From: Lingula anatina
Lineage: Eukaryota > Animalia > Brachiopoda
Direction: 5' to 3'
Assembly (NCBI GenBank): GCA_051362555.1
Contig: CM120643.1
Span: 4,960,001-5,024,000, forward strand
Length of the DNA stretch: 64,000 nt
Every line of letters starts with the position of its first letter. The stretch's first letter is position 1. The notes below the pieces were generated by a model, which saw nothing but the letters and a program-made list of their open reading frames with translations, made no database searches and had not been told where the DNA came from. This document shows, piece after piece, positions 2,780-38,234 of the stretch. Position numbers and translations under genes: made by a program.

Positions 2780-2819
<40 letters not shown>

Positions 2820-5232: not shown

Positions 5233-5272
<40 letters not shown>

Positions 5273-7639: not shown

Positions 7640-7677
<38 letters not shown>

Positions 7678-9845
7678 AACTGACACACACACACACACAC
7701 AAACTTTTTCTATCTTTCTCACAAACACACACACACACTCACACACACACATTTACACAGAGACAGAAACACACAAAGACATCATTGAGACTTAATGAAA
7801 ACTTCAGCTTCACTGTAAGGTGCCGCCGCCAAGTGGATAAAGGAAGCACTACATTGTAAAATGCAGCAATGGGAAGAGCATCCCCAAGCAGTAAAGTATC
7901 ATATTTTGAAATATAAAAATATGTAACAAACCAAAGGAAAATTGATTTCTATAATTCATTCAAATAAATTGTTCACACAATAGCACAGGATTCAAACGAT
8001 TGCGAATGTGCGAAAAGTGCACCGTTTGAAAGAAACAAGTTGGTGAAATTGATAAAGCCTGCCGGTGTTAAGCCACTGGTTGATTTGATTTAATTTGCCC
8101 TCTGGTGTTGTTTTGAAAATAGATATTACAAACATTCTATTGATTTTATGTTTTAAAAAGTAAATCCATTGGAATTTCTTTAGAATAACAGGGATCTTAA
8201 TTCATGGGTCAAAATCTGGTAGGGCCATGTTGGCCCACTTGGTTAAAAAAATTTGGGCCATTTTTAAAAAATGTGTAACACAGTGATCAAAATATATGAT
8301 ACATACAGTGACAATAAAGACATAGACAGTGATCAGAATACATACAGACACATCCAATATCTCAACAGACAATGCAAAGTCATCAAGATGTATACATGAA
8401 AATTTGTTTATACCAGCGAACCCTCGCCCCCCAACTCCAAACAGATAACATTGACCCTTGTCACCTTGAACATATCAAAAACTGATTTGGATCTCAATGA
8501 CCCATTTACAAATGATAATTTCCCAGTAACAACATATAGTGGCGATGGTCACAATGGGATTGAAAAGAATCACCAGTGTAGCAATATCGTTGTTGCACTG
8601 ACCTTTGCTGATATTGTGGGGTTGTAGAACGAGATGGTGAACAGAGGAATTCAACTGTCCTCAGTGTGATGATAATCCAGGAAACACGCCTTCATTTCTA
8701 CTGAAAACAGATACTAAATCATCAATAAAAAAAAAAAATACATATATATATATATATGTAGACATATACGCTAGTTACAACACATACATCTCTCTAACTC
8801 ACACGCACACACACACGAACCCTTCTCTCTTTCTCACACACACATTCACACAGAGAAAGAAACACACCAAGACATCAATGAGATTTAATGAAGACTTCAG
8901 CTCCACCATTAACCCTTGTCACGTTGAACATATCAAAAACTGATTTGGATCTCAATTACCCATTTACAAATGATAATTTCCCAGTTACAACATATAGTGC
9001 CGATGGTCACAATGGGATTGAAAAAAATTACCAGTGTAGCAATATCGTTGTTGCACTGACCTTTGCTGATATTGTGGGGTTGTAGAACAAGATGGTGAAC
9101 AGAGGAATTCAACTGTCCTCAGTGTGATGATAATCCAGGAAACACACCTTCACCTCTACTGAAAGCAGATGATAAATCATCAATAAAAAAAAATATATAT
9201 ATATATAGACAATGCTAAGGCATCAGAATGTATACATAAAATTTTGTCTATATCAAGGTTTTTGCTAAGCGCACAACTCTCTCCCACCCCCACCCAAATA
9301 TCAACAGTTCACATTAACCCTTTATTGTCACTTTGAGCATATCTAAGACCCATTCCCATAGATATTTAGATCGATCTATCCCCCTGGGGAGTCTCAGCTC
9401 AACAGGCTTAAATGTTTGTCCCACCCACTAAAAGCTGTAAGGGGGTAATTAACTATGGTGCGCGCTCGGCTGACTGCAATTGAGCATGAACCCCCAGGGA
9501 GTTAGGTCGATCTAAATCTAAATTTCTGGATCAATCTAAATCTCTGGGAATGCACTCTCAAACTGAGTATGCATGATATAATGGCACAATATTAAAGATA
9601 TAAAGAGATTTTTCCCCTGATCATGTGTGTGTTATGTAATTTTTTATTATTTTTAAAATACTGGATAAGCTGAACACTCCTTTGTTTTAACAAAATGTCA
9701 AATTTTTCTGTTTTTGTATTCTAAAAATAATACAACTTTCAAAATTGGCATAAAATTGTGTTTAGTTTTTTAAAATCAATTTTGAAGTTCTTTGAGCTTT
9801 TTTAATACTAAATTCTCTATCTCTCTTACCACACAATCCCAAAAA

Positions 9846-9884
<39 letters not shown>

Positions 9885-9892
9885 ACTAACTG

Positions 9893-9925
<33 letters not shown>

Positions 9926-11368
9926 TTTTCTATCTTTCTCACAAACACACACACACACTCACACACACACACATTCACACAGAGACAGAAACACACAAAG
10001 ACATCATTGAGACTTAATGAAAACTTCAGCTTCACTGTAAGGTGCTGCCGCCAAGTGGATAAAGGAAGCACTACATTGTAAAATGCAGCAATGGGAAGAG
10101 CATCCCCAAGCAGTAAAGTATCATATTTTGAAATATAAAAATATGTAACAAACCAAAGGAAAATTGATTTCTATAATTCATTCAAATAAATTGTTCACAC
10201 AATAGCACAGGATTCAAACGATTGCGAATGTGCGAAAAGTGCACCGTTTGAAAGAAACAAGTTGGTGAAATTGATAAAGCCTGCCGGTGTTAAGCCACTG
10301 GTTGATTTGATTTAATTTGCCCTCTGGTGTTGTTTTGAAAATAGATATTACAAACATTCTATTGATTTTATGTTTTAAAAAGTAAATCCATTGGAATTTC
10401 TTTAGAATAACAGGGATCTTAATTCATGGGTCAAAATCTGGTAGGGCCATTTTGGCCCACTTGGTTAAAAAAATTTGGGCCATTTTTAAAAAATGTGTAA
10501 CACAGTGATCAAAATATATGATACATACAGTGACAATAAAGACATAGACAGTGATCAGAATACATACAGACACATCCAATATCTCAACAGACAATGCAAA
10601 GTCATCAAGATGTATACATGAAAATTTGTTTATACCAGCGAACCCTCGCCCACCAATTCTCCAAACAGATAACATTGACCCTTGTCACCTTGAACATATC
10701 AAAAACTGATTTGGATCTCAATGACCCATTTACAAATGATAATTTCCCAGTAACAACATATAGTGGCGATGGTCACAATGGGATTGAATAGAATCACCAG
10801 TGTAGCAATATCATTGTTGCACTGACCTTTGCTGATACTGTGTGGTTGTAGAAAGAGATGGTGAACAGAGGAATTCAACTGTCCTCAGTGTGATGATAAT
10901 CCAGGAAACACGCCTTCATTTCTACTGAAAACAGATACTAAATCATCAATAAAAAAAAAATACATATATATATATATGTAGACATATACGCTAGTTACAA
11001 CACATACATCTCTCTAACTCACGCACACACACACGAACCCTTCTCTCTTTCTCACACACACATTCACACAGAGAAAGAAACACACCAAGACATCAATGAG
11101 ATTTAATGAAGACTTCAGCTCCACTGTAAGGTGCTGCCACCAAGTGGATAAAGCAAGCACTTATATATTATACATACAGTGACAATAAAGACATAGACAG
11201 TGATCAGAATACATACAGACACATTCAATATCTCAACAGACAATGCAAAGTCATCAAGATGTATACATGAAATTTTGTTTATATTAAGAGTTTTGCCCAG
11301 CGAACCCTCGCCCCCCCCCAACTCCAAACAGATAACATTAACCCTTGTCACTTTGAACATAACTAACT

Positions 11369-11404
<36 letters not shown>

Positions 11405-12169
11405 TTTTCTATCTTTCTCACAAACACACACACACACACACACACACATTCACACAGAGACAGAAACACACAAAGACATCACTGAGACTAGCTGAAGACT
11501 TCAGCTCTACTGTAAGGTGCTGCCGCCAAGTAGATAAAGGAATCACTACATTGTAAAATGCAGCAATGGGAAGAGCATCCCCAAGCAGTAAAGTATCACA
11601 TATTGAAATATAAAAATATGTAACAAACCAAAGGAAAGTTGATTTCTATAATTCATTCAAATAAATTGTTCACACAATAGCACAGGATTCAAACGATTGC
11701 CCATGTGCGAAAAGTGCATTGTTTGAAATAAACAAGTTGGTGAAATTGATAAAGCCTGCCGGTGTTTAGCCACTGGTTGATTTGATTTAATTTGCCCTCT
11801 GGTGTTGTTTTGAAAATTTATATTACAAACATTCTATTGATTTTATGTTTTAAAAAGTAAATCCATTGGAATTTCCTTAGAATAACAGGGATCTTTATTC
11901 CTGGGTCAAAATCTGGTAGGGCCATTTTGGCCCACTTGGTCAAAAAAATTGGGCCATTTTTAAAAAATGTGTAACACAGTGATCAAAATATAATATTTCA
12001 TTATAATAAACACATACAGTGACAATAAAGACATAGACAGTGATCAGAATACATACAGACACATTCAATATCTCAACAGACAATGCAAAGTCATCAAGAT
12101 GTATACATGAAATTTATATCAAGAGTTTTGCCAAGCGAACCCTCGCCCCCCAATTCCAAACAGTTAACA
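1..12169. repeat. Complex tandem array, left homogeneous part: ~2.2-2.4-kb units built from exon-like modules, (CA)n/(CT)n/(TA)n microsatellites and one MITE
   Basis: Embedded MITE recurs at 2277, 4700, 7143 and 9347. Near-identical ORFs recur at 5769/10424 and 2706/7570/9776. The sequence at position 1 restarts at 10976, including the same deletion junction (TTGAACATAACTAACTGACAC). Confidence 0.95.
2277..2487. mobile_element. PIF/Harbinger-like MITE, family A (~210 bp); array copies also at 4700-4910, 7143-7353 and 9347-9557
   Basis: Imperfect TIRs (GACCCATTCCCATAGA...TAGATCGATCTA / TCTCTGGGAATGCACTC) with TAA/TCA flanks. Sister modules show the empty site CATATCTAAAACTGA. Confidence 0.75.
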
Positions 12170-12439
12170 TTAAAGATGCATACAAACCGAGTGGGAATCC
12201 CCACTAACGCATATAAACCACTTCTACTAGCTGCTAATACGACGCAAGTAATGCCGACATGCCAAAGGATTAACCTCATTAATCTCTCGTTCGGCTAAAA
12301 AATAGCTGTAAACCTGCAGTTTTCTTAAATTTATGGTTGTAAGTTTAACCTATTTTTCCGACCTCCTGTTCGTAAAAGTCCGCTGAATGACGTAGTAATG
12401 TATGACGTATTGCTGATTTGCATACCCATCAAAACAAAT

Positions 12440-15400
12440 ATGGCGGACGAGGCGGGAGGGAGAAAGAGGAGAGCGAGGAGAAACTTGTTAACTTTATCTG
12501 AAAAAAGAGAAGAAAGCAGGCTTCAGCTCTGAAGATCGCAAAAAGCAGAGTGTACATTGGAGTGGAAATAGAGAGATGGAAAGAATTGAAAGGCAAAATG
12601 GAAGCAAAGACGGACGAAGCGGTAGCCACGTTTCTGCTAGATCGGTAAGTCGTATTTGTCGGCTTTGTTTATGATGTAAATTGGTATCAAGACCACCGAG
12701 TAATTTATCTGGTACACAAATTTCATACGAATATGCTTTCTGTCTTAATAGAATGAGAGAGAAATAGTTCTACCGTCTAGGGCAACCGATGTGTACAAGT
12801 AGTCGTAGTAATACTAGATGACACGTGCAACGCTTTGTTCTCATAAAACCATACGTAGCAGAATCTTATAGATTGCATTCAGTGTTTTACAACGAATGAG
12901 AAATCAGGGTGAGGAGAAGAGGAAGAGCTTGCATTTTAATTGACTGTAACACGGCTGACATAGAAATAGTAATCCCAAACAATATTTAAATTCCCTGCTT
13001 GACAGAGTTCTCATGTGAATTCTAGAGATCTCATCTAATGCATCATATGTATGTCAACATATACCACAAACCACTGACATTAATATATGAATCATATGTC
13101 ATAAAAGCCACATAATATATATCCTGTAAGCAAATAAATGTCAGCGTTTATTACAAATAAAAATATGTTGATATTTGTGATCAGAGAGAGCAAATTAGCT
13201 TTGCCCACATGCTTAGAATTGCACATTTTCCAACATTTGAATGCATTTGCATTCCAATTTCTGACAATGAAATGTTATAAAAAGGTCTAGTAACTGCTTT
13301 TATTATGGAAACATAATATGTATGAATTACTTTTTAAAGAAAATTTTTAAAGGATAATAATTTTGGGAAAAAATAATAAAGCATTGGCAAATATATATTG
13401 TTTTAGGTATGACCTCTCTCAAGCTGCAGTATCTGAGGATCCTGCTGTACCATCTACATCTGGTTTCTCACAGGAGAAGCAGATGCTTTTGGGTCCAGTC
13501 GCCACAGCTGTACCATCAACCTGGGCCAAAACATCTACACCAGACATGAAGATGAAAGGCAAACACATGGTGGAGAAAACACCGTCAGCCTCAGAAATAT
13601 CATCTTGTGAATCAGAGCCGTAAGTTTATCCTTATAAAATATTCTAATTTCAAAATTATGTCTGGCCCTCATAATTATTGTTATAACTCAATCAATGTTG
13701 TCCATCCAATGTTGTTCATCTGATTTTTTTTCTTTAATACATTCAAGTTTCATTTTCCTAATTTTTTTTTAGAATGATGGTGTCAAGATTGGAGCACCTT
13801 TCAAAAGAAGCTGGATCAGATAAAGAGTAGGTTTACATCAAATGAAGTCTTCCTGTTATCAAAGAAAATAATCAGAGCTTTTTAAACTACACTTTAAATG
13901 TGTTTCCTTCCGTGAATCCAGACAAACCCCCTTTCTGCCAATTTTAATTGGTCTTTTTTTCACTTATATAGCTAAATATTAGAACGACCATATAATTCCT
14001 GCTTTGTCTCATTGGTTAATCCTAGATAATTTGTAATTTAGGATATAGGTGCTTATTTCATTGCTGTTTCATATGATGTTTAAAAATCCATTACAGGAAA
14101 AGTGAAGGAAAAGCTCAAGCCTCTGGCATCCGTGCACATAAACCTACTGAGCTGTCTGATTCCTTCTGTGATCCCTTCAAGTGAGTTTTTTTTTAATCTT
14201 GTGAAGAGAGAGGTGTAGAATCCTACAATATTTACACATTAGAAATCATTAATTTGTGTTGATTGATAGTGACATATACTGAATGATGATTTGTCTCATT
14301 TTTGCTAATTGCAACACCTTATAATTGCAGTTTGTCAATAGACATTCATGTGGAGAATCCTGAAATTGAAGTTAGTGGTGATGATGAAGAGGAGGACCCA
14401 GATTACGACCCAGCTATTGACATTTATGCTGTATTGTAAGTATTTTTTATGTATTTTTCAAGTAAAAGATTACAATGCCAAATAAATGATAGAAATACAG
14501 TTCGAAAGATTTATGTCATGCAATTGCCTAATGGGCTCAGGTATTGCACTAAATGTTTACAGGAAAAATGTCCCACTTTTTTATTCTTATTTCTTTGTAA
14601 ATTTGCGCAATTCACCAAGCATCTCCTCAATTACCATGAAAGTGTGTATATAAAAATTGAATGTTAGTATTATCATTAAAGATGCTTGACTAATGTCATT
14701 CATTCTCATTTTAGTAAAAAGATGTAAGTACATTGTTTAATATAATGATTTATAACATTTACACAATCAGACCTGATGGCGTAGTCCAGATAGCACCTGA
14801 TGTATCCTTTGAGGAGATGGATTTTGGGTTTGAGATCCCAGGAGGTGATGGAATTATAGAGAATGAAGAGGACACTGCACCATCTCCACCAGGAATCAGG
14901 CGTATTGAAAGTGACGAGGACTGTGAAGATATAGTCAATGCAACAAAATGTTTTGTCTTCGTGGAACAGTTGATGCAACTGGCTAGAATATACATTCCAA
15001 ATTGTGCATCTTGTAAGAAACCCACAGAGATAAAGGAATCTTACGTTGGTTCAGCCTTATACCTCAAGTGGGTATGTATTTACCATAAATTTGAAAGTCA
15101 CCCTGTTTTTAACATGTGCATTTTATGACTGTTGTTCATGTAGGAATGTTCCTTGTAGGCTGCTATGAAAATATATCAGCAAAATTTAAGTTCTTTAGCC
15201 CTGCATAATGATTCTCTACACATTAACCACTCTAGTACGTCTATTTCTATGGAAGTTGGAGCAACCATTGTGCACATTATTTTGTTATTATGGACCAGCA
15301 GAAATGAAAGTGTAATTTATTTATAGGTATGTGACTCTGGGCACTTAAGTGGTCAGTGGTGCACACAGCCGCATCTCAACCGCAGACTTCACAGCGGAGA

Positions 15401-18042
15401 TTTTTTAATGTCGGCAGCCATACTGACCTCCGGCAACAATTTTAGCAAGATGTCTATGTGGGCTGACATGCTGAATGTTAGATTCACGTCTGCTGATCAA
15501 TTCATGAAGATCAGCAGAACATACATCATCCCAACTATTGACAAGCACTGGGAGGAACACCAGAAACAGGTGTTGAATGAAATGAAAGAAAAAGATGTAG
15601 TTGTTTTAGGTAGGTACAGATTTTATATGCATGGTAGCAAAAACAAATGTTCTGATAACATTGGCTGTATAATGATTGTTAGTCTTTTAGATGAGTTCAG
15701 GCATTGCATTTCTCATATAATCATAAATCAGCAAAGACTAAAGTTTATTTTAGTATACACTTATAGAAATTATGAATCATAATAAAAAGAATGTTTTTGT
15801 GCAAATGAAACAATTTTTATTAAATATATTATTGAATACTATAACGATCTAAGTGGCAATGAAATGAATGTTTTAATTTATGATTTTTTATTGAATTGTG
15901 TTATCTGCATATGCGTTATAATCTTGTTTTGTAGGTGATGGCAGAAACGATACGCCAGGTCACAGTGCTCAATACTGCACGTACACACTTATGGACAATG
16001 ACACAAAAAAAATTCTCACGGTCCATACGTTAGATAAAAGAATGACGGACCGTAAATCAGCAAACATGGAAAAGGCTGGGTTTATTGCCGCCATGAGAGA
16101 GTTACAAGCCAAAGAAATAAAGATTGTAGAGGCTGTTACTGATGCCCATATTGGGATAGGTGCAGTAATGAGTAAGCACTTTTTCACTAACACTTGTCAC
16201 TGAAATTTTGATCTGTATATATTCTGCGTTCACAAAATTTAGTATTAAATTATTCATGCGAAGGGTAGTATTTTTTTTGTCCTCTTACACATTTGGTTAC
16301 ATGACTTTATTTTGACATTGTTCAATTTTATTTTCAGAAAGTGAATATCCCGGCATTAAACACTCACATGATATTTGGCATGTGGCAAAGAATCTGGGAA
16401 AAAAACTGGTCAAGGTATGTCAAAAGTACACGCACCTGTGTTGGATTTCTAACATGGTCAACATGTAAATTGAGTAATGTTATATTTATGAATAACTATC
16501 CAAGAAATTATCCCTCTCTTCTTGCTCAATTATAATCGAAAGTAATGTAAATGCCTATACCTAATAAGGTGCACCCATGCATTTGTGTTTCTTGTAATAG
16601 GTCGCTCAGAAGAAGGGTAATGGTGTTCTCCTGAAGTGGTGTAGGGATATTGTTAACCATTTCTGGTTTTCTTGCAAAAAGGCTGAAAGCTATCCATCAT
16701 TTGTGGTGAGTAATGTTAGGTTACTTTCATGTCAGTTTTGCTCATGTCATTTTCCCATTAGTAAATTATATTGATGTTTTGAGATCAATTATTCAGATGG
16801 AAGTTGCATTGAAGCGAAATCATTTTTTTTCTTTTCAAAAAGGTTTTATTCTAACATTTGTATGTTGCAATGTAGTTTTTAAGACGCGCTTGTAAGTGTA
16901 TGTTATAAAATATAATCTCTGTGCATGTCTGTTGCACTAAATCCCCATGAATCTGGTGTTCTGCCTATGACTGCCAAAACTAAAGAATCAGGTTATTTTA
17001 AATCTTAAATTTTTGTAATATCAATGCATTGTTTTTCTATTGTGTTCACTGAGTAATTGTAAGTTTAAATTGCTTGTTATAGAGTATCTGGAGAAGTGTG
17101 CTTAACCACATCACAAACCAACACGAGTGGATTTTGTCTTACGGAGGAGTGAACCATTGCCTCCATGAGCCACTTACAGAAGACGAAGTAAGGGACAAGG
17201 AGTGGCTTTCCCCTTCAGAACATGCCCATGTGTTGAAAGACTTGGCTTCAGTTGTCCTAGATAAAAGGCTTCTGAAGAATGTTGGGTATTATCTCAATTT
17301 TAGGTAAGCAATCCACATAGGGCACGGGAAAGTAGAAGCTTATGATAATTTTTGTAAAATTGGTTTGAGTCAAAGGATATCAAATGTCATAAGCACTATA
17401 ATGCACCCGTTATATATTTTATATATGTATTACAGCTTCAGTTAATGGTAGACTATAAATTATCTTTGCTTCCCTTTTAGGAGTACAGCAGAGTTGGAGG
17501 GTTTCCACCAACATCTACTAATGTATTGTGCCAAGCGCTTTGCTTACACACCACCCGTGTACAGGGCACGCAACAGGTTGGCTGCACTGGACCATAACTT
17601 AAATTTGGATAGGCCAGTGGAGGTGAATAGAAATGGAGAAGTAAGGTAAGAAAATTGATTTGCTGTAGACATCTCAAGGCAATATTTCATTAAAAAGACT
17701 TGATTTTTTATGCAAATCTAGAAAAAAATGAATGCAGTTTTATTTACAATCTTGACACATTTATTGGAGTTCATATTTCTTTCAAGGTACCACAGAGTGT
17801 ACAATAAAAAAAGTGGACGCTGGACAGTGCACCCAGTCAAGTCCAGGAAACAGTATGGATACATCAAGGCTCTGCATTCTGACGCTGTCAAAATGAGGAT
17901 TCAGGATCCCATTGGAATGCAGAAGACAGTTTTAGAAGAAAATGACCCCAGGCGCATTTCCAAAGTCCTTGCACCCATTCAGCCTCCTCCAACTCAGCAG
18001 CTGGTGCTGGAGAAGAAGTCCAGATTTACTGTCAATGAGTAA
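12440..18042 (+). CDS. Kolobok DDE transposase, 13 exons, ~768 aa; one 1-nt frameshift in exon 1 (A6 run at 12501-12506)
   Basis: Manually spliced GT-AG exons with matching phases: 12440-12644, 13407-13619, 13773-13826, 14097-14180, 14331-14435, 14771-15071, 15327-15609, 15935-16171, 16338-16414, 16601-16705, 17083-17303, 17481-17645, 17787-18042. Motifs: CxxC...WVCDSGH zinc-binding module, GDGRNDTPGHSAQYCTYT (D1), VTDAH (D2), HDIWH, NHFWFSC, STAELEGFH (E), YCAKR, LAALDHN. Confidence 0.9.
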
Positions 18043-18331
18043 AAGGTTCTAAGACCTTTTTCAACTGAGAACAAATGACACAAACACAAGGAGATCTTGA
18101 GCAAAATGTTCATAAGTTTGGCACTGGAATCATATAACAGTAATTGTGTAGCACAAGCTGTATGTTTTCCTTATTCTTAGCTTACCACCGCCTCACATCA
18201 TTCAGAGGAGAACCTTTCAGCAGTTAAAATAGTGAATCTGAAGAGGTGATTTGGTTGTGACTGAACAAACATAACACACAATATGTTTATGAGATGTGTG
18301 GGTCTATCACATTAAAAACTTTAAAAAAAAC

Positions 18332-18458
18332 TGTGCTAAATAATTACTAAGAATTGAGGGAGTTCTAACTAGCTTGTGCTAAATAATTACTATTAATTGA
18401 CAAGAGTTCTAACTAGCTTGTGCTAAATGATTACTACTAATTGACGGAGTTCTAGCTA
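18332..18458. repeat. 44-bp tandem repeat (3 copies) immediately downstream of the KolX stop codon
   Basis: TGTGCTAAATAATTACTA...GAGTTCTAACTAGCT is repeated three times. Confidence 0.8.
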
Positions 18459-20390
18459 GCCAATCCTGTTAGGAATAAACCCCCTATAATGTCCATAGGC
18501 ATCTGGAAATTTGTCTCTAATTGCCCACACAGAGCAGGATGGGATTACTCTCCTGTTGCCAGCCCCTAGATGACCGTGGACCCACAGCGTAAATTGTCTA
18601 TACGCTTGATATCTGTTAGCTTTTGTGTTGTTTTCTTCATCGTCTAGAGCCAGAACATCCCTTCTGTAAAGTCTTGCAAGGTTCAATACCCCCTCATCTA
18701 AGTTGAGAACAGAGAAGTCCTGTAAAATACAAGAACATTACATTACTTAACTGGTAGATGTGATGATAAGGTTTGCAACTGTATGTAAGCATATGTACAC
18801 CACTGAAAACGAGTATGTTCAAGTCACAAGTGGTTTAAGTCAACTCAGCAAATTGTATTTAGTCTGTCTCACTTAATTTGAAAAAAAACTTGTCAAATAT
18901 GCCTTAAAGTAATGTTTATTTTGAATAAAATATTTTGCTGAAATTTCACTTACTGGTAATAATGTAATGCAGTTTTCCTTTCCACAACACTGTTTTTCAA
19001 TGTCTGTTGGCATCTCTCTACATTTCTGGCACACACACCAGGATGGTGATGCCACATCAGGCTGTGGATGGTATCCACCTGGCTGTGGCACTGGAGGCTG
19101 TAACAGGTCAAATACAAGACTGGGATGCTTCTCAGCCATAGACAAACATATGTCCCTTAACTGGGCAACATCCATTTTAGAAATAGCATTCTGAAAAATA
19201 AGCAGTAGATTTAAAAATAAATAGTTTATGCAAATCTGCCTTGCCAAATGTCTTATTCATTCTTGATTTTCCTTAAGATCATCAACATACAGTAATTCCC
19301 TAGTGCTCAAAACTTTTGGATAGTATTGGATTGCAATCTATGTCATTAATGAGTTCTTCTCAACTATAGCAGGGATTTTAGAGAGGTGTGTTATTCAGAG
19401 ACAAATCAGATGATGTTTTCATTGCAGATTACCCTGCCTTTTTGCCAAATTACAAATAAATAAATACATAAATAATTTTAAAAAACAGTTTAGCAGAACA
19501 TATACCTAATACAAATTACCAAAATTGAATAACCTTCTCTTACCCTCATTGTTTCTTGTCTTTTCAAAAGATTTTCCGCAGCAACTTCTGCCACCTGGTC
19601 CCTCGATGATCTCTGTGAAGATCTGCTTCTACTAGATAGCCTGCTAACTCCTCTTCCTCTTCTACCTCTTCCACCCCTTTCTCTACCACCTCTGCTTCTA
19701 CCTCTTCGCCATCTACCTGTACTTGGTCTTACAGCTTCCTCAGTACTCTCTGCACTACTACTAGTACTACTTGATCTAAAACCTGGCAAAATTTCACTTT
19801 CCTGAAAAAAAGTCCAATAATGATTCAAATAGTAGGTTAACAAAGAATGTACGGTTATGAGAAAATACACGTACTTTTGTACATAAATCTGCATTTTGCC
19901 CTTAATCCAAAATAATAATAATAATCATAATAAATGGTGAGAGAACACTGCTGAATTCAACTTCAGCACGATATTATATAATGTACTATGTTACAACTAC
20001 ATGTAATTGTGGTACTTAGCGTGCGATGGTACGTTACCCGAGGGATATACATATATATCAGAGCAGAATCTACTCGTTTTTCACAGAAAAACACCCCTCA
20101 AGCCCCCAAAATGCGTATATCGCCACGCTCACATAACATCTCTTGATATTTAATTCTTACATGTATTCTTCCGTAAACTTCGCAGCCATTTACTTGTAGA
20201 ACCCAAAACACATTTCTATCGATAAATTGCAGAAACACAAGCTCTTGTGTGTGAATGTTTCTGAGAAGACCTACCAGACTTTAGACAATAATGCTGGCTA
20301 CTAAACTACTGATTTACAACGATCAAACGTCTACGCATTAAACGTATTCGTGAACAAAACAACGGAGAAAAACATTGTACTCACCGCCAT
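18456..20390 (-). CDS. KolX-type accessory protein with a P2X7 intracellular (ballast)/nanor-like Cys-rich domain, 4 exons, 254 aa
   Basis: Phase-0 exons: 20390-20385 (ATGGCG|GTGAGT), 19801-19544, 19190-18954 and 18719-18456, giving an uninterrupted ORF. Motifs: [61 protein letters not shown], and GHYRGF. Confidence 0.9.
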
Positions 20391-20585
20391 GCTTGCCTTT
20401 ATTTTCGTTTACCTAATATGGAACTAGTTGCGCGCGCATCAACTCCATCTATGGACATAGCTGCGCGCGCTTATTTAAATAAGCCTTTACGGAAACTGCC
20501 GAGAGTTATTAATAGCATAGAGAAAAATGCAGAAAAAAGCTGTTTAAATGCTATTTTCCGGAAATATTAAGCGTTATATCTCTAA

Positions 20586-20800
20586 CACCCCATTCTCATA
20601 GATTAGATCGACCTACATTGGATCGACCTAACTCCCTGGGGATTCACGCTAAATAGCTGTCAGCCGGGCGGACACGAAAGTTAATTACCCCTTAAAGCTT
20701 GTAGTAGGCGGGGACGGACACTTAAGAGGGATTATCTGACAGTAATCTAGTGAGACTCCCCGCGGTGATAGATCGATCTAAAAGTTGTGAGAACAGAGCC
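20586..20800. mobile_element. Family A Harbinger-like MITE nested in the Kolobok right subterminal region
   Basis: TAA flanks at 20583-20585 and 20801-20803, TAGATCGA subterminal motifs, and homology to 2277-2487 in the opposite orientation. Confidence 0.75.
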
Positions 20801-21757
20801 TAAGATATGCTATATGGAACTATGTGGTGGCATTTGGACGGGATTTATGGCACAAAATTTGGCTTAGTATGCATCTTTAACCCTTGTAACCTTGAACATA
20901 TCAAAAACTGATTTGGATCTCAATGACCCATTTACAAATGATAATTTCTCAGTTACAACATATAGTGGCGATGGTCACAATGGGATTGATTAGAATCACC
21001 ATATTGTAGCAATATCGTTGTTGCACTGACCTTTGCTGATACTGTGTGGTTGTAGAACGAGATGGTGAACAGAGGAATTCAACTGTCCTCAGTGTAATGA
21101 TAATCCAGGAAACACGCCTTCATTTCTACTGAAAACAGTTAATAAATCATCAATAAAAAAATACATATTTATATATATGTAGACATATACGGTAGTTACA
21201 ACACAGACATCTCTCTAACTCACACGCACACACAAACCCTTCTCTCTTTCTCTCACACACACACACATTCACACAGAGAAAGAAACACACCAAGACATCA
21301 TTGAGACTTAATGAAGACTTCAGCTTCACTGTAAGGTGCTGCCACCAAGTGGATAAAGAAAGCACTACATTGTAAAATGCAGCAATGGGAAGAGCATCCC
21401 CAAGCAGTAAAGTATCATATCTTGAAAAAGAAAATATGTAACAAACCAAAGGAAAATGAAGAAATTGATTTCAATAATTTATTCAAATAAATTGTTCACA
21501 CAATAGCTCAGGATTCAAACGACTGCGCATGTGCAAAAAGTGCACTGTTTGAAATAAACAAGTTGGTGAAATTGACAAAGCCTGTCGGTGTTTAGCCACT
21601 GGTTGATTTGATTTAATTTGCCCTCAGGTGTTGTTTTGAAAATTTATATTACAATTTTACAAACATTCTATTGATTTGAATTCAGCTGTTCTCAGTGTGA
21701 TGATAATCGTGGATATGCACCTTCATCTCTACTGAAAACAGATAATAAATCATCAAT

Positions 21758-21798
<41 letters not shown>

Positions 21799-22135
21799 AG
21801 ACACATACAGAGACAATTAAGACATTTTATCTATATCAAGATTTTTGCTAATCAAACCGTTGTCCCCAAAGGCCGAAAATTTTACATTAACCCTTGTGAC
21901 CTTGAACATACATAAAACTGAGTGGGATATATAAGTGACCCTTTTCCAAAATGATAATTTTTCAGGTACAACATATAGCGGCAATGGTCACAATGGTCAC
22001 CTGTGTAGCAATATCCTTGTTGCACTGACCTGTGCTGATGATGCTGTGAGGTTGAGATGGGTTCAGCTATCCTCAGTGTGACGATAGTCCAGGAAACACA
22101 CCTTCATCTCTACTGAATCAGATAATACATCATCA

Positions 22136-22448
22136 ACTAAAAAAGCACACCGAGAGCATAGACCTCTGCCAAGGCAGCAAAGTCTCCACCCAATGCCTTT
22201 CACCCCTAAATTTTAATTCTATAATGATAAAGTTTTTTGATTTTTGATTATTGATTGACTAATGATCCAGATCACCACCAAAAAGTAATCATCTGTTCCT
22301 TGGCCCACTTCTGACAGTTCCAGAAAATTTCATCAAAATCGGTCCATAACTTTTTCTGTAACGTTGCTAACAGACAGACAGACAGAAAGACAGATAGACA
22401 GACAGGCAAACTAACAGAACCAAAAACATAACTTCCTTGGTGGAGGTA
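22136..22448 (+). mobile_element. Short non-autonomous Helentron/Helitron2-type element (HINE-like)
   Basis: Inserted in the array motif CATCAA|TAAAA without a TSD. It has an (ACAG)n microsatellite followed by the terminal hairpin ACTTCCTTGGTGGAGGT. Confidence 0.7.
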
Positions 22449-22754
22449 ATAAAAAATAAATATGTAGACACATACACTAGTTATAACACAGAAATATCAC
22501 AGTGATTAAAATATATTATTATATTATATAATAAACACATACAGCAACAATAAAGACATAGACGGTGATGAGAACAGTACAGACACATTAAATGTCACAA
22601 CAGACAATGCACAGGTATCAGAATGTATATATGAAAAAATTTTGTCCATAAAAATAATTATGCTAAGCAAACCCTCACCTCCCCAACTTCGAACAGTTCA
22701 CATAAACTCTTGTCACCTTAAAAAAATATATATATATAACTGAGTGGGATCTAA

Positions 22755-22952
22755 TACTGAATTCCCAATGATTTAGATCGATCCATCTGGATTGACCTAA
22801 CTCATTGGGGGTTCACGCTAGTGCGCACAGAAGTTAATTACCCCTTACAGCTTTTAGTAGTCAGGACAGACATTTAAGCCGGCTAATCTGACAGTAATCT
22901 AGTGAGACTCCCCACGGGGTTAGATCGATCTAAAATCTGTGGTAATGCACTG
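22755..22952. mobile_element. Family A Harbinger-like MITE
   Basis: TAA flanks on both sides; homologous to 20586-20800 and 39696-39921. Confidence 0.7.
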
Positions 22953-22955
22953 TAA

Positions 22956-23118
22956 GGCTTCATTCACATGGAAAATCTATTTTCTAAAAATTGAGAATTA
23001 ATTACAGCTTTGGAAGTAACTGGGTCGCGCTGCCAGTAATTATGCCGCGGGGTATTCAGGGCACAGACCGTGATCACAAGATACCGCAAATAGAAAATAG
23101 GTTCATATGAACGGCCCC
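22956..23118. mobile_element. Second Harbinger-like MITE (family B, 163 bp)
   Basis: TAA flanks and imperfect TIRs (GGCTTCATTCACATG..CTATTTTCTA / TAGAAAATAG..CATATGAACGGCCCC). Confidence 0.65.
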
Positions 23119-25400
23119 TAAGTGACCCTTTTCAAAAATAATAATTTCTCAGGTACAACATATAGTGGCAATGGTCACAATGGGATTGAAGAGAATCGCC
23201 AGTGTAGCAATATCGTTGTTGCACTGACCTGTGCTGATGATGTAAGGTTGAGATGAGTTCAGCTGATCAGAATACATACAGACTCATTCAATGTCACAAC
23301 AGACAATGCATAGGCATCAGAATGTACACATGAAATTTTGTCCATATAAGGACCTTTGCTAAGCGCACACCAGCCCCCAATTCCCAACAGTTCACATTAA
23401 CCCTTGTCACCTTCAACATATCTAAAACTGATTTGGATCTAAGTGACCAAAATGAGAATTTCTCTGGTACAACATATAGTGGCGATGGTTGCAATACGAT
23501 TGAGAAGAATCACCAGTATGGCAATATCGTTGTTGCACTGACCTTTGCTGATACTGTGAGGTTGAAGAACTAGATGGTGAACAGATGAGTTCAGATGTCC
23601 TCAGTGTGACGATAATCCAGGAAACACACCTTCATCTCTACTGAAAACAGATAATGCATCATCAATAAAAATATATATATGTAGACACATACAGTAGTTA
23701 TAACACAGAAATAACACAGTGATCAAAATATATTATTATATTATATAAATAACACATACAGCAACAATAAAGACAAAGACAGTGATAAGAATACATATAG
23801 ACACATTCAACGACAAACAGACAATGAACAGTCATGAGAATTTATTTATGAAATTTTGTATGTATAAATATATTTGCTAAGCGCATCCCCCCCCCCCAAC
23901 CCCGAACAGTTTACATTAACCCTTGTCACCTTGAATATATATAAAACTGAGTGGGATCTAAGTGTCCTTTTTCCTAAATGATAATTTCTCAGGTACAACA
24001 TATTATAATAAACACATACAGCAACAATAAAGACATAGATATTAGAATACATACAGACACATTCAATGTCTCAACAGACAATGCACAGGCAGCAAGGTGT
24101 ATACTTGACATATTGTTTATATCAAGATTTTTGCTAAGCAAACCCCCCCTCTCTCAACAGTTCACATTAACCCTTGTCACCTTGAACATATTAAAATCTG
24201 ATCTGGATCTCGATGACCCATTTACAAATGATAATTTCCCAGTTATAACATATAGTGGCGATGGTCACAATGGGATTGAATAGAATCACCATATTGTAGC
24301 AATATCCTTGTTGCACTGACCTTTGCTGATGCTGTGAAGTTGAAGAAGTAGATGGTGAACAGATGAATTCAGCTGTCCTCAGTGTGATGATAATCCTGAA
24401 TATGCACCTTCATCTCTACTGAAAACAAATAATTAATCATCAATAAAATATATACATATATAAAAGACATATAATGTCCTTACAACACAGACATAACACA
24501 GTGATTAAAATATATTACTATACTATAATAGACATACTGGTATATACAGCGACAATAAAGACATTTTGCCTATATCAAGATTTTTGCTAATCAATCCCTT
24601 GCCCCCAGAGGCCGAAAAGTTTACATTAACCCTTGTTACCTTGAACATATATAAAACTGAGTGGGATATATTAGTGACCCTTTTCCAAAATGATAATTTT
24701 TCAGGTACAACTTATAGCGGCAATGGTCACAATGGGATTAAAGAGAATCGCCAGTGTAGTAATATCATATTGTTGTAGTGACCTAGCTGTGATGAGGCTG
24801 CGAGGTTGAGATGAGTTCAGGTGTCCTCAGTGTGATGATAATCCAGGAAACACACCTTCATCTCTACTGAAAACAGATAATATATCATCAATAAAAATAT
24901 TTATAGACACATAATCTTAAAAAACTTTCTTTAGTAGGGTTATTCACTTGCAGATATTTTTCTCTTAATTCTGTATATGCTACACGTCATTAAAAAATGG
25001 TATTCGTCTTCAACATCATAAATATTATGTTTTTTACAGATGAAACAGAGTCTATTGCATCTTTCTATACCTCACCATTTAGTAGGTGATTTGCACATCT
25101 GAATCTTGCTAGTGAGGTTCTGTGTTTTACATTTTTAACGCTTAATAAGTAACACTCCAGTGTTAATGTACTCTTAAATAATGAATAAGTATCCAGTTTG
25201 CTGCTCCTACATATGTCACTGTGCCATATTTGGCCAGCATAATCTACTAATCATTCTCTGAAAACTTTAATAAATAAAACAGAATTTCCCACATCCTGAG
25301 CCTCCGAGACATATCCAAATCCATATCTGTATAACAGTGTTTTAACATCTGTGGCCCAAGTGGGCCTTCCACTTGAATCTAATTTAAATAGCATATCATA

Positions 25401-26410
25401 GATCGCATTCACAACGAGTTGAGCCAGGCTTTACAAATCCTGGGGACTAAATATGGCGGTCGTACATGAAAGAAAAACCGCCTAATCTTTTAATAGTCCT
25501 CCGCCTCTCACACGCCTCCCCACACGTCATTAAATCTCGGCTCCATTAGGACGACACATGGGGAGGCGTGTGAGAGGCGGAGAGACTATTAAAAGATTAG
25601 TCGGTTTTTCTTTCATGTACGTCCGCCATATTTAGTCCCCAGGTCCCCGTTTCACAAAGAATCTTAAATCCGTAGTCGACTAGCTCGGGCTGGGTGACCT
25701 AGCTAGGTCGACTACGCTGAAGTCGACTAGGAGTGTTTCACAAAGAATCTAACGTCTTAGCTTGGCGTGCTTACCGTAGTCAATGTGCACGAGAAACTCT
25801 TCAAGAAAAAAAAATTTCAAAAGTTTCACAAGACATGACATTTCATGGCCTGTTTCGGCCGAGAACGATCATTTATCAACAATAAAAATCAGCCAAAACA
25901 CAAACAAAGTTTATTTTTGAACTTTACTGATTAGTTTAACTTCGATACAACTTCAAAGTAATAGTTAAACATTAACATGTCGTGTAACACTGCTGACGGA
26001 CGTCTAGCGGTCAAAATCATAAAGAAACACGCGATCGGCTGGGTGAAGTGGCATTTTATTTTTTATTTCAATATTCCATAAATGTCAGTGTTATTCAAGG
26101 ATATTATGACACAATATCTTGAAGGAGGTATGTTCTTTCCAAATTTTTGTTGTTTATGCTCTCATTTACCGACTTTTAGTTGAGCTTGCCGACTTAAGTC
26201 TCCTCCCGAGGAGGCTAGACATCGTCGACTAGCAGCTAAGAAAAAACGATGTAAGCGACCTTTTAGATTCTTTGTGAAACGGGACTTAGTGACGTAACGA
26301 CTTAATTACGTTGGTAACCAAGCTCTTAGTCGGGGAAACCGACTTAAGTTTTTTTGTGAAACGGGGGCCAGGATTTGTAAAGCCTGGCTCAACTCGTTGT
26401 GAATGCGATC
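25401..26410. mobile_element. Foldback MITE (family C) inserted in the LINE, with a 3-bp ATA TSD
   Basis: TIR GATCGCATTCACAACGAGTTGAGCCAGGCTTTACAAATCCTGG at both ends. ATA at 25398-25400 and 26411-26413. Excision restores the LINE codons RVYDML. Confidence 0.9.
25643..26368. mobile_element. Harbinger-like non-autonomous element (726 bp) nested in the family C MITE, with a CAG TSD
   Basis: TIR G(T/C)CCCCGTTTCACAAA. CAG at 25640-25642 and 26369-26371. Excision restores the right arm of the host MITE. Confidence 0.88.
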
Positions 26411-28987
26411 ATATACACGAGCAGGATAGCGATCTTCATTCACATGTACAAGCTTTAACCAATATTTAATGCTATTTACCATATAATTGGTATACAAATT
26501 ATGGATATCTTCCGCATTCGCCTAGTACAGCTTCCGTCACAGTATTTGAACTAACACCTAATAAATATCTACAAAATTTTGCTTGGAAGATTTCAATACT
26601 TTCTACCGGTTTATAACCCCATATCTCAGCACCATAGAAAAGAATGGGTGTTATCATTCTATCAAAAAGAAAGAAAGCTTCCTTAAAGGAAATACATTGT
26701 TTTTTTTTCAAATATAACTTAACAACAAATAATGCTTTATTGGCTTGGTTGATTTGATGTTGGATAGTTTTACCCCAACCAAGGAAGGCACCAAAATATG
26801 TTCCTAAGTATTTATATGCAGGTACTGCTTCTAATTTTTTTGCCCTTGAAAAACCACCTTTCATTTTTCTTTATTTTACCGCCTCTCCTAAATACTACTA
26901 TTTTTGTCTTTTAGACATTTACTATCATACCATACTGGCTGCAATATTTTTCTAATTGATGGATTTTTTTTTCTGTAACCCCCCAACAGTGTCTGAAATG
27001 CATACAATGTCATCAGCATAAAGCAAAGACATGAGATTTGGAAACACCTCATTTATGTAAATACCCTGACATCCAGCCTTGTGCAAACTATGATAAAATT
27101 CATTTAAAGGACTTAACATGCATCCTTGTCGAGTGCCCATGTTACATTAAAAATACTCAGTAAGGCCTAAATTTGTTAGAACACATGATTGCAGTTGGGA
27201 ATACATAGAGCGTAAAACTGTGACGACATGTCCGTTTACACATTTTTTTGCAAGTACATACCATAATAATTTGTGTTGAACACTATCGAAAGTGGCTGAG
27301 AAATCTATAAAAATACAGTAGCATCTGCCTTTTCTTCGACTTAAGTATTTTTGTACGCAACCCTGCAATGTAAAAATGTGATCGACAGTGGAGTAACCAA
27401 TTTTATAGGTGGCCTGAGCTTCAATCGTTATTTTCCACTGCCCAATTATTAAATCTGTTACTCAAAATTTTCATAAATATTTTTCCCATGACATTCAAAA
27501 GCGCAATTCCTCTATAATTTGTTGCCACATTTACATTTCCTTTTTTGAGCAATGGGTACAGAATGGCATTGCACCAGCTAGAGGGAAATTTTCCACTTAT
27601 TAATACAGTATCATAAAGATTTAACAACAATGGTGATAAATGGTTGAAGCCATATTTAAACATTTCAATCACTAATCCATCTGGACCTGGAGATTTTCCA
27701 TTTTTCATGGTGCGTACAACATTTGATGGTTCATCCATAGTGAATGGCTCATTTAGAGTATTGCAACTGTTTAAAGGCTGTATGTGCTCAAACCATTCAG
27801 TATACTGTTCGATATATGTTACGAAGCTCTTTTCTATGTCATTTACGTTTTCATTTAAAAACTTGTAAAAATGATTTTGCCATGCTTGTGGGTTGATATT
27901 ATTCTTTTTAATAGACTGAGCACTTTTCAGAGACTTTATATAATTCCACATTTCCTTTTTGGTTTTTAAAGCGTGCAATTGCTTGACTTCCTTTGCAGTG
28001 TAAGAATTTTTCTTCATTTCACACAGTGCCTTAAACTTACTCTTACATTCCTTATATTTTTTTAAATCATTTCGATTATTTGACTTCCTGAAATCATTGA
28101 GACATTTGAATTTAAGTTGTTTTAATAGATCACATTCTTGATCCCACCACCTAGGTTGATTTCTTTGAACTTTGCTTTCCCTGGCTAAAAAGAGAGTACC
28201 TGACCGTTGTAGTAGACCCTCTAACATTTGTTCAGCATTGTTCACATCATTCATCTGCAATAAGTAATTGAAATGGCCTAAACTAAAGATATTATTGTTT
28301 TGTAAATTATCAAGGAACCTATTTGCTTTTTTGTTGTTCCATTTGTACAGTTTGGGCTTGCATGTGCTTATTGCATTTTCGGGTTCATTTGAAACATCCC
28401 TGCACTGGACTTGACATGAGATGGGGAAATGATCTGATATATTTAAAGGTAGAACCTCAAATGCATCTACACACATGAAAAGGTCTGTATGTAACAAAAT
28501 ATATGCTCTAGAGATGTTATATGGAATAAACTCGTCCACGTGATGTTTGCTGGTCAGAGACATGGGTCAGTTGTTTTCCGTGAATAGTTGACCGATCCCT
28601 GCCTATATAATGCACATGGCAGTCCTTCCCGTCCATTGTTCAGTCATGGCAGATGTCTATACAGCAAGGAGTGGATATTGCGACTTTCAATATAAGAATG
28701 GATAGCCAGTCTACATATAGTTATCCCTATTTTTTGGACATACCTGACAATGGTGCATTTATAATACTGTATTAATAAGAGCAGGTAGAAAATTGTGTAG
28801 AAATTTCACAGCTTTACTTTGACATTTCGGAAGATGAATTTCTGAACGCAAGCCAGGCAGCAGAGCTTTCGTATTTGGACTCAAGCAGACGCAGGTTGCC
28901 ACAGCTGATAAGGTGAGCATATCAAAAATATATACGGTAGATTAAATATCTGAAATCCCCAGGAAAATAGGGTATACTTATTACACT

Positions 28988-29821: not shown

Positions 29822-31550
29822 AAAAAACATAACAGTTAAAATGGTCCAATCAAGGAGATGTTCAAATTGACCTATATTTTCCTAACACTGATCACTCCTG
29901 TGATTTTCTAGACAATAGGCCTATTGGTTTTCCTTGAAATGCATTATCAGTATTGCATATACCGGTATGCTGACAAAAGAGAAAACCTAGGGACAACACT
30001 GAGCAGATCTCTGCTAGTTTTGAAGATATGAAGGGCACGAAAATATGCAGAGTTCAGTTTGTGGTAAAAAGGTAGGTCAAAGGTCAATTTCAAGGCCACA
30101 GTATATGACTTCCTATAAAGGTTCAATAGTAGCTATGGGCATTTCTTTACCAATGTTGGAGATATGAAGGCCAGGAAACATGCAAAGTGCAGTTCAACAT
30201 AAATAGTAGGTCAAAGGTCAATTTCAAGGTCACAGTAAGATTGCCAGTTTATGACTTTCTATTCAAGTTCAATAGTAACTTTGGACCTATCTCTGCCAGT
30301 TTTCGAGATATAAGGGATAGAAAATTTGCAAAGTTCAGTTCATGTTGAAAAGTAGGTCAAAGGTCAATTTCAAGGTCACAATAAGAATGCCAGTATATGA
30401 CTTCCTATTCATGTTTAACAGTAACTATGGGTGTATCTCTGCCAGTTTTGGAGACATAAGGGCTGGAAAATTTGCAAAGTTCAGTTCATGGTGAAAAGTA
30501 GGTCAAATGTCAATTTAAAGGTCACAGTTAGATTAACAGTATATAACTTCCTATTCAAGTTCAATAGTAACTATGGGCGTATCTTTGCCAGTTTTGGAGA
30601 TATAAAGATCAGAAAACTTCAAAGTGCAGTTCATCATGAAATGTAGGTCAAGGGTCAATTTCAAGGTCACAGTTAGATTACCAGTATATGACTTCTTACT
30701 CAAGTTCAATAGTAACTATGGGCATATCTCTGCTAATTTTGGAATATTTATCATTTTCCCCACTGAATATTGCAATGTTGTAATTTTTGATATAGCGCAA
30801 TGCCTAAACCATATCGAAAACAAAAAAATGGACACCACCTCCAGTATTGCACTTGACAAGTTCTACAAAATGCGATGAACAAAAGGTTTCTGGCATTTAC
30901 CATTCCAGAATAAAAACAAGTTTTCAGTTTCGGGATCTAATGGCTGCTTCTCCCGTGAAAATGCACCGATTGACCCCAAACTCCCAAAGATGAAAGGAGT
31001 CCCCAATTGTAACCCCTCACTGTAACAGGAGAGCTTAGATCTGTGTAGTTTCCAAAAAATAGCACAAACAAATATTTTTTTGCAGAAAATTCCCATTTTT
31101 TAGAAAATTTTGGCTTGTTTGACCTTGAAAAAAAGGTCAAAAGTCAAATCCAAGGGCATATTTGGAATCTCCACATATGAGTTTCGGTCAGACTTCTGTA
31201 GTAATTTTTCCCATAATTCCTTTGGTTTGGGAGATATTTAGCCTTGAATTTTCAAAAATTTTGACAAGGGTGCGTTTCAACAAGTGTCACGCCCAGGCCA
31301 ATGCACCGACAGAGATAAAAAAAACAGGGTGTTCAAGTTGAGATTATATGTGACCTAAATCCAAGAGATGGGGACACAGGTCCTGGCGGTCTAGGAGGAG
31401 AAGCGGTAACGGTGACTTGTTTCCGGCGCCCGACTGCGGAGCCGCAGGAGCCGGCGGAGCCGCAGGAGCCGGCGTGGCCCGGCGGAGCTGTACGAGATGG
31501 GTCGGGACTAAAACCATGAGTACCGCCAGCGTATACGCTGGTGGTACTAA
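29604..31550 (+). mobile_element. Non-autonomous Helentron/Helitron2-type element with an internal 146-bp tandem array
   Basis: Head AACTAGAGGATCAGAGAGGCGATACC is shared with 36072. About 5 array units are followed by a GC-rich (CGGAGCCGCAGG) mini-repeat and the terminal hairpin GTACCGCCAGCGTATACGCTGGTGGTAC (31520-31547). Confidence 0.7.
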
Positions 31551-38231: not shown

Positions 38232-38234
38232 TAG

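What the first reader, a model, noticed from the sequence alone, without database searches (positions are those of the whole stretch)
18456..20390. Transposon-borne ballast-domain protein with an RGG/RS-rich tail and a 6-nt first coding exon
Seen: an intact 254-aa ORF with MA on a micro-exon, an Arg/Gly/Ser-rich low-complexity segment ([25 protein letters not shown]...[10 protein letters not shown]), a predicted helical linker, then WCxCxxCxxMP...CC...CIT and RYxAYRQF..W..G.LG...R.VIPSC....IR..FP...G.Y.GF. Known: this pattern characterises the cytoplasmic ballast of vertebrate P2X7, which binds Zn and GDP/GTP, and nanor-like proteins. Inference: a Zn/guanine-nucleotide-binding module joined to a nucleic-acid-binding or NLS-like basic tail could act as a nucleotide-sensitive transposase cofactor. 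It also represents the kind of mobile reservoir from which the P2X7 ballast could have been captured.
Basis: partly seen in the sequence, partly recalled or inferred. Interest (0 to 1): 0.8.

Follow-up and report, generated by a model that had tools for sequence, protein, structure and literature searches.

The report
Brachiopod Kolobok transposon's KolX helper gene
This is the known helper gene (KolX) of a cut-and-paste Kolobok jumping gene in a lamp-shell genome; its kinship with the zinc-binding tail of the vertebrate P2X7 receptor is real but was published in 2022, and its likely job as a nucleic-acid-binding aid to the transposase is untested.

Summary
Four GT-AG exons on the minus strand give a 254-aa protein whose C-terminal 119 aa are a P2X7 ballast domain (Pfam P2RX7_C E 5e-23; Z 13.2, rmsd 2.6 A over 117 residues to rat P2X7). 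The gene lies tail-to-tail with a 13-exon DDD/E transposase inside an 8.7-kb element with AG...CT ends and a TTAA duplication. This is a Kol0 Kolobok transposon with its KolX gene. Kojima & Bao 2022 already state that KolX has the ballast fold and gave rise to the P2X7 tail and Nanor. All seven cysteines are kept, but only 2 of 5 GDP-contact residues (R546, R578). The Arg/Gly tract is N-terminal and common in the family (21 of 61 long homologues, a biased sample). No spliced RNA read was found. The transposase has a 1-bp break in this haplotype that two other samples lack. The scan met the same system before in at least seven other genomes. Ordinary; only KolX's function remains open.

The parts
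12174..20876 (+). Whole Kol0 (Kolobok0) DNA transposon, 8,703 bp
   Evidence: Ends AG...CT, TTAA on both sides; the joined flanks match uninterrupted host-repeat copies, e.g. 8415-8504 at 86 of 90 bases without a gap
12170..12173 (.). Left TTAA target-site duplication
12174..12186 (+). Left terminal inverted repeat, 13 bp, starts AG
   Evidence: 12 of 13 bases match the right end
12440..18042 (+). DDD/E transposase gene, 13 exons (12440-12644, 13407-13619, 13773-13826, 14097-14180, 14331-14435, 14771-15071, 15327-15609, 15935-16171, 16338-16414, 16601-16705, 17083-17303, 17481-17645, 17787-18042), 768 aa when read with X at a 1-bp break in the A-run near 12500; D417, D485, DxxH 506-509, E635
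   Evidence: All 12 introns GT-AG, one terminal stop; 42-45% identity to four mollusc proteins of 720-762 aa and 72% to an oyster core fragment. The break is absent from contigs of X2 and X3 and present in X1 and X7
18456..18719 (-). KolX exon 4 (aa 168-254 and stop): R203, Y207, R208, GxLGxGxR loop, C229, R235
18954..19190 (-). KolX exon 3 (aa 89-167): helical linker and six of the seven cysteines (C140, 142, 145, 156, 157, 162); ballast starts at about 19049
   Evidence: (P2RX7_C 26.1 bits)
19544..19801 (-). KolX exon 2 (aa 3-88): Ser-rich start, Arg/Gly/Ser tract (19601-19717, aa 31-69), start of long helix
20385..20390 (-). KolX first coding segment (Met-Ala), likely the end of a first exon with 5' UTR
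   Evidence: Only GTRAG donor among 16 candidates; same start in RefSeq model P0001; no RNA junction read
20581..20783 (.). High-copy ~200-bp repeat with inverted ends, inserted in the element's right subterminal region; a passenger, not part of KolX
   Evidence: 7 other copies in the window at 74-88% identity; nearly all RNA reads laid on the element fall here
20864..20876 (-). Right terminal inverted repeat, ends CT
20877..20880 (.). Right TTAA target-site duplication

Best explanation
The gene is KolX, the second gene of a Kol0-lineage Kolobok DNA transposon, and its product likely works in the nucleus as a zinc-stabilised, nucleic-acid-binding helper of the element's transposase rather than as a GTP/GDP sensor. 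Shown (about 0.97): the element, its ends and TTAA duplication, the tail-to-tail transposase, the ballast fold and the seven cysteines. Inferred steps: (1) the cysteines hold two Zn ions as a structural core, as in P2X7; (2) the disordered Arg/Gly tract gives nuclear import and non-specific nucleic-acid binding; (3) four near-invariant arginines (R203, R208, R223, R235) and a Gly-rich loop form a basic site for a phosphate-bearing ligand, most likely a nucleic-acid backbone; (4) the helical linker docks on the transposase or on another KolX. In role it would resemble the Myb-like partner of Harbinger transposons. The confidence given is for this mechanism.
For: Element anatomy matches Kolobok: TTAA duplication, 5'-RR...YY-3' ends, two proteins (paper passages; window). 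Transposase motifs match Kolobok-1_XT and Kolobok-1_BF in the paper's Data S5 by eye (GDG..D.PGH.A.YC.YT.M, (H/F)D.WH, closing LE..H). Fold: Z 13.2, next hit 4.2; homologue P0002 Z 13.5. Seven Cys in 123 of 137 homologues. R203 150/155, R208 139/155, R223 141/153, R235 145/154. The GxLGxGxR loop is not in mammalian P2X7 (alignments). A basic run (10 or more R/K in 30 aa) is in 37 of 61 long homologues. The family is large: 3,370 clusters at 50% identity. No Pfam THAP hit in four full-length transposase homologues or in exon 1, although Kolobok transposases usually carry THAP (PMC6004289 passage); Rump et al. report one THAP-ballast fusion in Ixodes. Harbinger precedent: its second protein binds the transposase, co-imports it and binds the ends (PMC9179366 passage).
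Against: No functional experiment on KolX was found in the library. Many Kolobok lineages have no KolX, so it is not generally required. The Arg/Gly tract is missing from 40 of 61 long homologues at the threshold used. The transposase has a conserved basic N-terminal region of its own that could bind the ends unaided. R546 and R578 equivalents are kept in 136 of 146 homologues, and 99 also keep H547, which fits a nucleotide site equally well. No spliced KolX read in four RNA runs (6-25% of each run read).
Confidence: 0.55

Rival explanations
1. KolX binds GDP/GTP in the ballast pocket and makes transposition depend on guanine-nucleotide state.
For: Same fold as the GDP-binding P2X7 ballast. 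R546 and R578 kept; 98 of 146 homologues keep R546, H547 and R578. The invariant R223 lies next to the positions of A567/L569, which contact GDP (PMC9859053 passage), and could replace lost basic residues. P-element transposase needs GTP (PMC7776569 passages), and P and Kolobok share the C/DxxH signature.
Against: This copy keeps 2 of 5 contacts. None of 146 homologues has R/K at 574, and 1 has K/R at 583. In P2X7 the cavity is partly closed by a helix of the neighbouring subunit, from a region KolX lacks (match limited to 470-595). Rump et al. raised the same question in 2020 and left it open.
Confidence: 0.2
2. KolX does not act in the cut-and-paste reaction but protects or tunes the element, for example by countering host silencing or binding the element's RNA.
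For: RG/RGG tracts commonly bind RNA (own knowledge). Other Kolobok lineages carry unrelated accessory proteins and some piggyBac families carry a KolX-like protein, so the function is portable between transposases. Anti-silencing accessory proteins are known in the related MuDR superfamily (VANC; recalled, no call).
Against: No chromatin or RNA-binding family was detected (Pfam; atlas hits for the linker all under 0.9).
Confidence: 0.2
3. This copy is a domesticated host gene like Nanor and no longer serves the transposon.
For: The insertion is at the same site in all 4 samples laid. Contigs run unbroken for kilobases, so no near-identical copy shows. The long contigs over KolX show 0-2 differences each.
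Against: Ends, TTAA duplication and transposase are all still in place. The whole element, introns included, is similarly invariant, as expected of a young insertion. It sits in a host tandem repeat. No transcript was seen.
Confidence: 0.05

Closest known systems
KolX of Kol0 (Kolobok0) transposons, type Kolobok-1_XT (Kojima & Bao 2022, PMC9587614; passages, section 10, supplement 3 parts 104-105 read)
   Same: Second gene beside a Kolobok DDD/E transposase; TTAA duplication; AG...CT ends; ballast domain with 7 cysteines.
   Different: New host family (RefSeq names the protein in Lingula anatina; 'Lingula' has 0 hits in the paper's 4 supplements). No THAP domain was detected in this transposase clade. 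The N-terminal Arg/Gly tract is not mentioned in the passages read; Figure S6 is an image and could not be seen.
Cytoplasmic ballast of vertebrate P2X7 (PDB 6u9v; Pfam PF20478)
   Same: Fold over residues 470-595 (Z 13.2, rmsd 2.6 A, 33% identity); C477/479/482/498/499/506/572, R546, A549, Y550, R551, P570, R578 and P582 equivalents kept.
   Different: No channel or membrane part; H547, R574 and K583 replaced; GxLGxGxR loop instead of the P2X7 loop; basic disordered N-terminus.
Free-standing ZCD / Nanor-like proteins, PTHR36981 (Rump et al. 2020, PMC7016195; outline and sections 9, 11, 13 read)
   Same: Short protein with the domain at the C-terminus; only R546 and R578 kept, as reported for most invertebrates.
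   Different: Rump et al. treated them as host genes. Here the gene lies inside transposon ends. His547 is commoner among homologues (114 of 155) than their sample suggested.
Myb/SANT-like partner of Harbinger transposons (PMC9179366, passages read)
   Same: A two-gene DNA transposon with a small second protein; this is the proposed functional analogy.
   Different: Unrelated fold and superfamily; function shown for Harbinger, not for KolX.

Membership tests
Kolobok superfamily | TTAA 4-bp target-site duplication | tested here: met
   12170-12173 and 20877-20880; empty site matches host repeat
Kolobok superfamily | Termini 5'-RR ... YY-3' with short inverted repeats | tested here: met
   AG...CT, 12 of 13 bases
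Kolobok superfamily | DDD/E transposase with C/DxxH signature | tested here: met
   D417, D485, DIWH 506-509, E635, conserved in homologues; weak Mutator/MULE Pfam hits below cut-off in homologues
Kolobok superfamily | N-terminal THAP domain (usual, per PMC6004289) | tested here: not met
   No THAP hit for exon 1 or P0019/20/22/23 at E<=10; no cysteine in the first 68 residues. 'Usual', not listed as defining in PMC9587614 (0 occurrences of THAP)
Kol0 (Kolobok0) lineage | Second gene encoding KolX | tested here: met
   Ballast-fold gene inside the element
Kol0 (Kolobok0) lineage | Transposase groups with Kolobok-1_XT in a tree | tested here: inconclusive
   Of the rows in Data S5 parts 104-105, the motifs are closest by eye to Kolobok-1_XT, -1_BF and -1_AP; no tree with Repbase sequences was built
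KolX / ballast (PF20478, ZCD) | Profile match above cut-off | tested here: met
   82.4 bits against 23.5
KolX / ballast (PF20478, ZCD) | Seven conserved cysteines | tested here: met
   C140, 142, 145, 156, 157, 162, 229 align to P2X7 C477, 479, 482, 498, 499, 506, 572. That these seven are the Zn ligands is recalled from McCarthy 2019, which is not held
KolX / ballast (PF20478, ZCD) | Ballast three-dimensional fold | tested here: met
   Foldseek probability 1.00 for 14 P2X7 chains; VIA Z 13.2. Model of the RefSeq form with its 27 extra residues; an insert-free homologue gave Z 13.5
P2X7-type guanosine-nucleotide site | R546, H547, R574, R578, K583 | tested here: not met
   2 of 5 kept: R, Y, V, R, D
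P2X7-type guanosine-nucleotide site | Measured GDP/GTP binding | not testable with these tools
   Needs purified protein
P2X7 receptor (RefSeq label 'P2X purinoceptor 7-like') | P2X channel domain PF00864 | tested here: not met
   Pfam finds only P2RX7_C above cut-off in P0001
KolobokP / E / D / H lineages | Long terminal direct repeats or a nuclease/helicase accessory gene | tested here: not met
   Self-BLAST of the element shows no long terminal direct repeat; the accessory gene is KolX

The most novel reading that the evidence does not exclude
KolX is a soluble guanine-nucleotide cofactor subunit of the Kolobok transpososome: its four conserved arginines and Gly-rich loop hold GTP/GDP, supplying in trans what the P-element transposase carries as an inserted GTP-binding domain. 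The GDP site of P2X7 would then be an inherited transposon feature, and KolX a small stand-alone model for the ballast's unknown function.
Probability: 0.15. Interest if true: 0.7.

Novelty: new member of a known kind. Interest (0 to 1): 0.13.

Why it matters
As a discovery it matters little: the transposon link and the P2X7/Nanor origin are in print. What remains useful: (1) a cleanly bounded element with both genes modelled and open-frame alleles in other samples, suited to the first functional test of any KolX; (2) a correction of a 'P2X7-like' host-gene annotation; (3) family-wide counts showing that the zinc cysteines and four arginines are nearly invariant while R574 and K583 are not ancestral features of these homologues. 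The function of the P2X7 ballast sites was called unknown in 2023 (PMC9859053 abstract), so a ligand for KolX would bear on it.

Tried and rejected
No whole genome is held for this window, so copy number and dN/dS across copies could not be measured. The run index listed no RNA holder. Four raw RNA runs were laid: no joint matched a predicted intron; the few internal reads (mostly X17) were unspliced, with many differences. This neither confirms the splice model nor shows silence in embryos or germ line. A complex prediction of an oyster transposase (P0019) with an oyster KolX (P0180, residues 60-254; both on a 37,762,054-bp contig, so possibly one element, not verified) gave 'no answer', score 0.02 against a mark of 0.34, without alignments or controls; it is not evidence either way. 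The cognate transposase was not among the 17 hits. A quick tree of 56 ballast domains (careful run unfinished) had 5 of 53 branches well supported; the Arg/Gly label needed 11 changes (shuffles 16), and the single P2X7 row was on a very long branch, so it says nothing on the direction of capture. A second, ~91% identical KolX copy in X2/X3 shows 8 amino-acid-changing and 1 silent difference among the 9 coding rows displayed (40 of 60 rows shown): consistent with neutral decay, too few to test. The atlas search on the linker gave only hits under 0.9. No other fold match stood out: 1 of 48,161 chains had Z>=5. Rejected: piggyBac (also TTAA, but the ends here are RR...YY); a truncated P2X7 receptor gene; an SR splicing-factor reading of the tract (RS-rich in 5 of 61 homologues). 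McCarthy 2019 could not be read.

Full report
1. Observation. The minus-strand exons 20385-20390, 19544-19801, 18954-19190 and 18456-18719 splice at GT-AG in phase 0 to a 254-aa frame. Exon 4 is 100% identical to a RefSeq protein named 'P2X purinoceptor 7-like [Lingula anatina]' (P0001, XP_013391824), so the window is very likely brachiopod DNA. That model has the same start but 27 extra residues read from intron 3. Homologue spacing favours the 254-aa form: 40-48 residues from C162 to R203 in 123 of 134 homologues, against 42 here and 69 in RefSeq. The Met-Ala segment has the only GTRAG donor among 16 candidates. It probably ends a first exon with a 5' UTR, and an in-frame ATG at 19894 is an alternative. 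Four RNA runs gave no spliced read, so the model rests on sequence and homology.

2. The domain. Exon 4 alone finds only P2X7 among 177,635 PDB sequences (E 1.1e-9). Pfam P2RX7_C scores 82.4 bits against a cut-off of 23.5. An AlphaFold2 model of P0001 on a 112-row alignment (mean pLDDT 75.8) matches 14 P2X7 chains with Foldseek probability 1.00. It matches rat P2X7 470-595 with Z 13.2, rmsd 2.6 A over 117 residues, the only one of 48,161 chains with Z>=5. An insert-free homologue gives Z 13.5. The seven cysteines align to P2X7 C477, 479, 482, 498, 499, 506 and 572 and are all present in 123 of 137 homologues with those columns filled.

3. The context. The gene lies in an 8,703-bp element (12174-20876) with 13-bp inverted ends beginning AG and a TTAA on each side. 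The joined flanks match uninterrupted copies of a host repeat in the same window (86 of 90 bases at 8415-8504), which fixes the boundaries. On the plus strand a 13-exon gene encodes a 768-aa transposase, 42-45% identical to four mollusc proteins, with D417, D485, DxxH and E635. The two genes are tail to tail with 413 bp between the stops. The transposase has a 1-bp break in an A-run near 12500. Contigs of X1 (possibly the source of the window) and X7 share it; those of X2 and X3, from two other studies, have the open frame. All four samples carry the insertion at this site, and contigs run unbroken for up to several kilobases, so no near-identical copy shows; contigs drop rare variants, so this is not a copy number. 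X2 and X3 also show a ~91% identical second copy of part of KolX.

4. What is known. Kojima & Bao 2022 (PMC9587614; passages, section 10 and two parts of supplement 3 read) define Kolobok by TTAA duplications and RR...YY ends, and the Kol0 lineage by a second protein, KolX. They state that KolX adopts the ballast fold, that P2X7 arose by fusion of a P2X4-like gene with KolX, and that Nanor is likely a domesticated KolX. Rump et al. 2020 (PMC7016195; sections 9, 11, 13) described the free-standing domain across animals, including molluscs, and asked whether it binds GDP. The finding is therefore a new member of a described system. A profile search finds 3,370 clusters at 50% identity. This scan noted the same system 12 times in at least 7 other genomes; I had stated this reading before that look-up.

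5. The nucleotide claim. Of the five rat GDP contacts this protein keeps R546 and R578 and has Y, V and D at H547, R574 and K583. I examined 160 homologues (12 and 148 from the top 150 of 3,370; one is a true P2X7). Among the 146 with all five columns filled, 98 keep R546, H547 and R578, 37 keep only the two arginines, 1 keeps four and none keeps five. So the P2X7 site is not reproduced, but a basic patch is conserved. R208 (139 of 155) and R223 (141 of 153, in a GxLGxGxR loop absent from mammalian P2X7) add to it. A phosphate-bearing ligand is likely; whether it is a free nucleotide or a nucleic acid cannot be told from sequence. P elements give a precedent for GTP in transposition (PMC7776569 passages). 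In P2X7 a neighbouring subunit helps close the cavity (PMC9859053 passages).

6. The basic tract. It is N-terminal and predicted disordered. Of 61 homologues with 90 or more residues before the first cysteine motif, 21 have 4 or more RG in 30 residues, 17 have an RGG, 5 are RS-rich and 37 have 10 or more R/K in 30. The profile included this region, so these shares are biased upward. An oyster KolX of the same length has the same layout (P0180). The tract is a common family trait, not a peculiarity of this gene.

7. Mechanism. Most likely KolX is a nuclear accessory factor: zinc core, basic tract for import and nucleic-acid contact, basic patch for a phosphate backbone, helical linker for docking (0.55; all inferred). 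The analogy is the Myb-like partner of Harbinger (PMC9179366 passage). No THAP domain was detected in this transposase clade, though Kolobok transposases usually have one (PMC6004289 passage). That fits an accessory DNA-binding role, but the transposase has a conserved basic N-terminus of its own. Rivals: guanine-nucleotide sensor (0.2), silencing or RNA-level protector (0.2), domesticated host gene (0.05). Literature searches found no functional study of KolX in the held library, which lacks most subscription journals and Repbase Reports. Figure S6 of PMC9587614 is an image and could not be read.

8. Verdict. Real, well bounded and ordinary: new member of a known kind, interest 0.13.

Noticed in passing
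window 38203-38568: About 360-bp non-autonomous relative of this Kolobok: 72% match to the left subterminal region (38235-38402) and a right end with the same 14-bp terminus plus TTAA (38551-38568); the left end looks degenerate.
   Followed up: partly
window 12440-12644: The transposase N-terminus has no THAP cysteines but a conserved basic stretch followed by a short 'vYIG...rW.elK..l....lA..LlD.Y' motif shared with mollusc homologues; no Pfam hit. It recalls a ribbon-helix-helix layout (recalled, untested).
   Followed up: partly
window ~12500: The transposase frameshift is polymorphic: present in X1 and X7, absent in X2 and X3.
   Followed up: yes
window 20581-20783, also 2295, 4718, 7161, 9365, 22750, 38585, 39738: An abundant ~200-bp repeat with inverted ends, heavily represented in poly(A) RNA reads from many loci; family not identified.
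   Followed up: partly
window 18330-18460: Three ~42-bp head-to-tail repeats directly after the KolX stop, in the gap between the two convergent genes; X2 and X3 show a 192-bp back-jump at 18299-18108.
   Followed up: no
window 1-12170 and 20881-24800: The element sits in a ~2.4-kb host tandem repeat with CA/CT microsatellites.
   Followed up: partly
window 26300-28570 (minus): Broken ORFs, the longest 381 aa (27421-28566), that look like a LINE reverse-transcriptase gene (family recalled, not tested).
   Followed up: no
window 58900-64000; 30099-30690 and 36287-37456: A 129-bp satellite array with recurring 55/184-bp steps, and a 146-bp repeat at two places.
   Followed up: no
proteins P0058/P0187: A second, divergent KolX from the same species (313 aa, long Arg/Gly tract, annotated with two isoforms), so more than one KolX family is present.
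   Followed up: no
proteins P0129, P0103: Ballast domain annotated in longer proteins with leucine-rich repeats (624 aa) or RT-RNase H pieces (1083 aa); may be real fusions or merged gene models.
   Followed up: no
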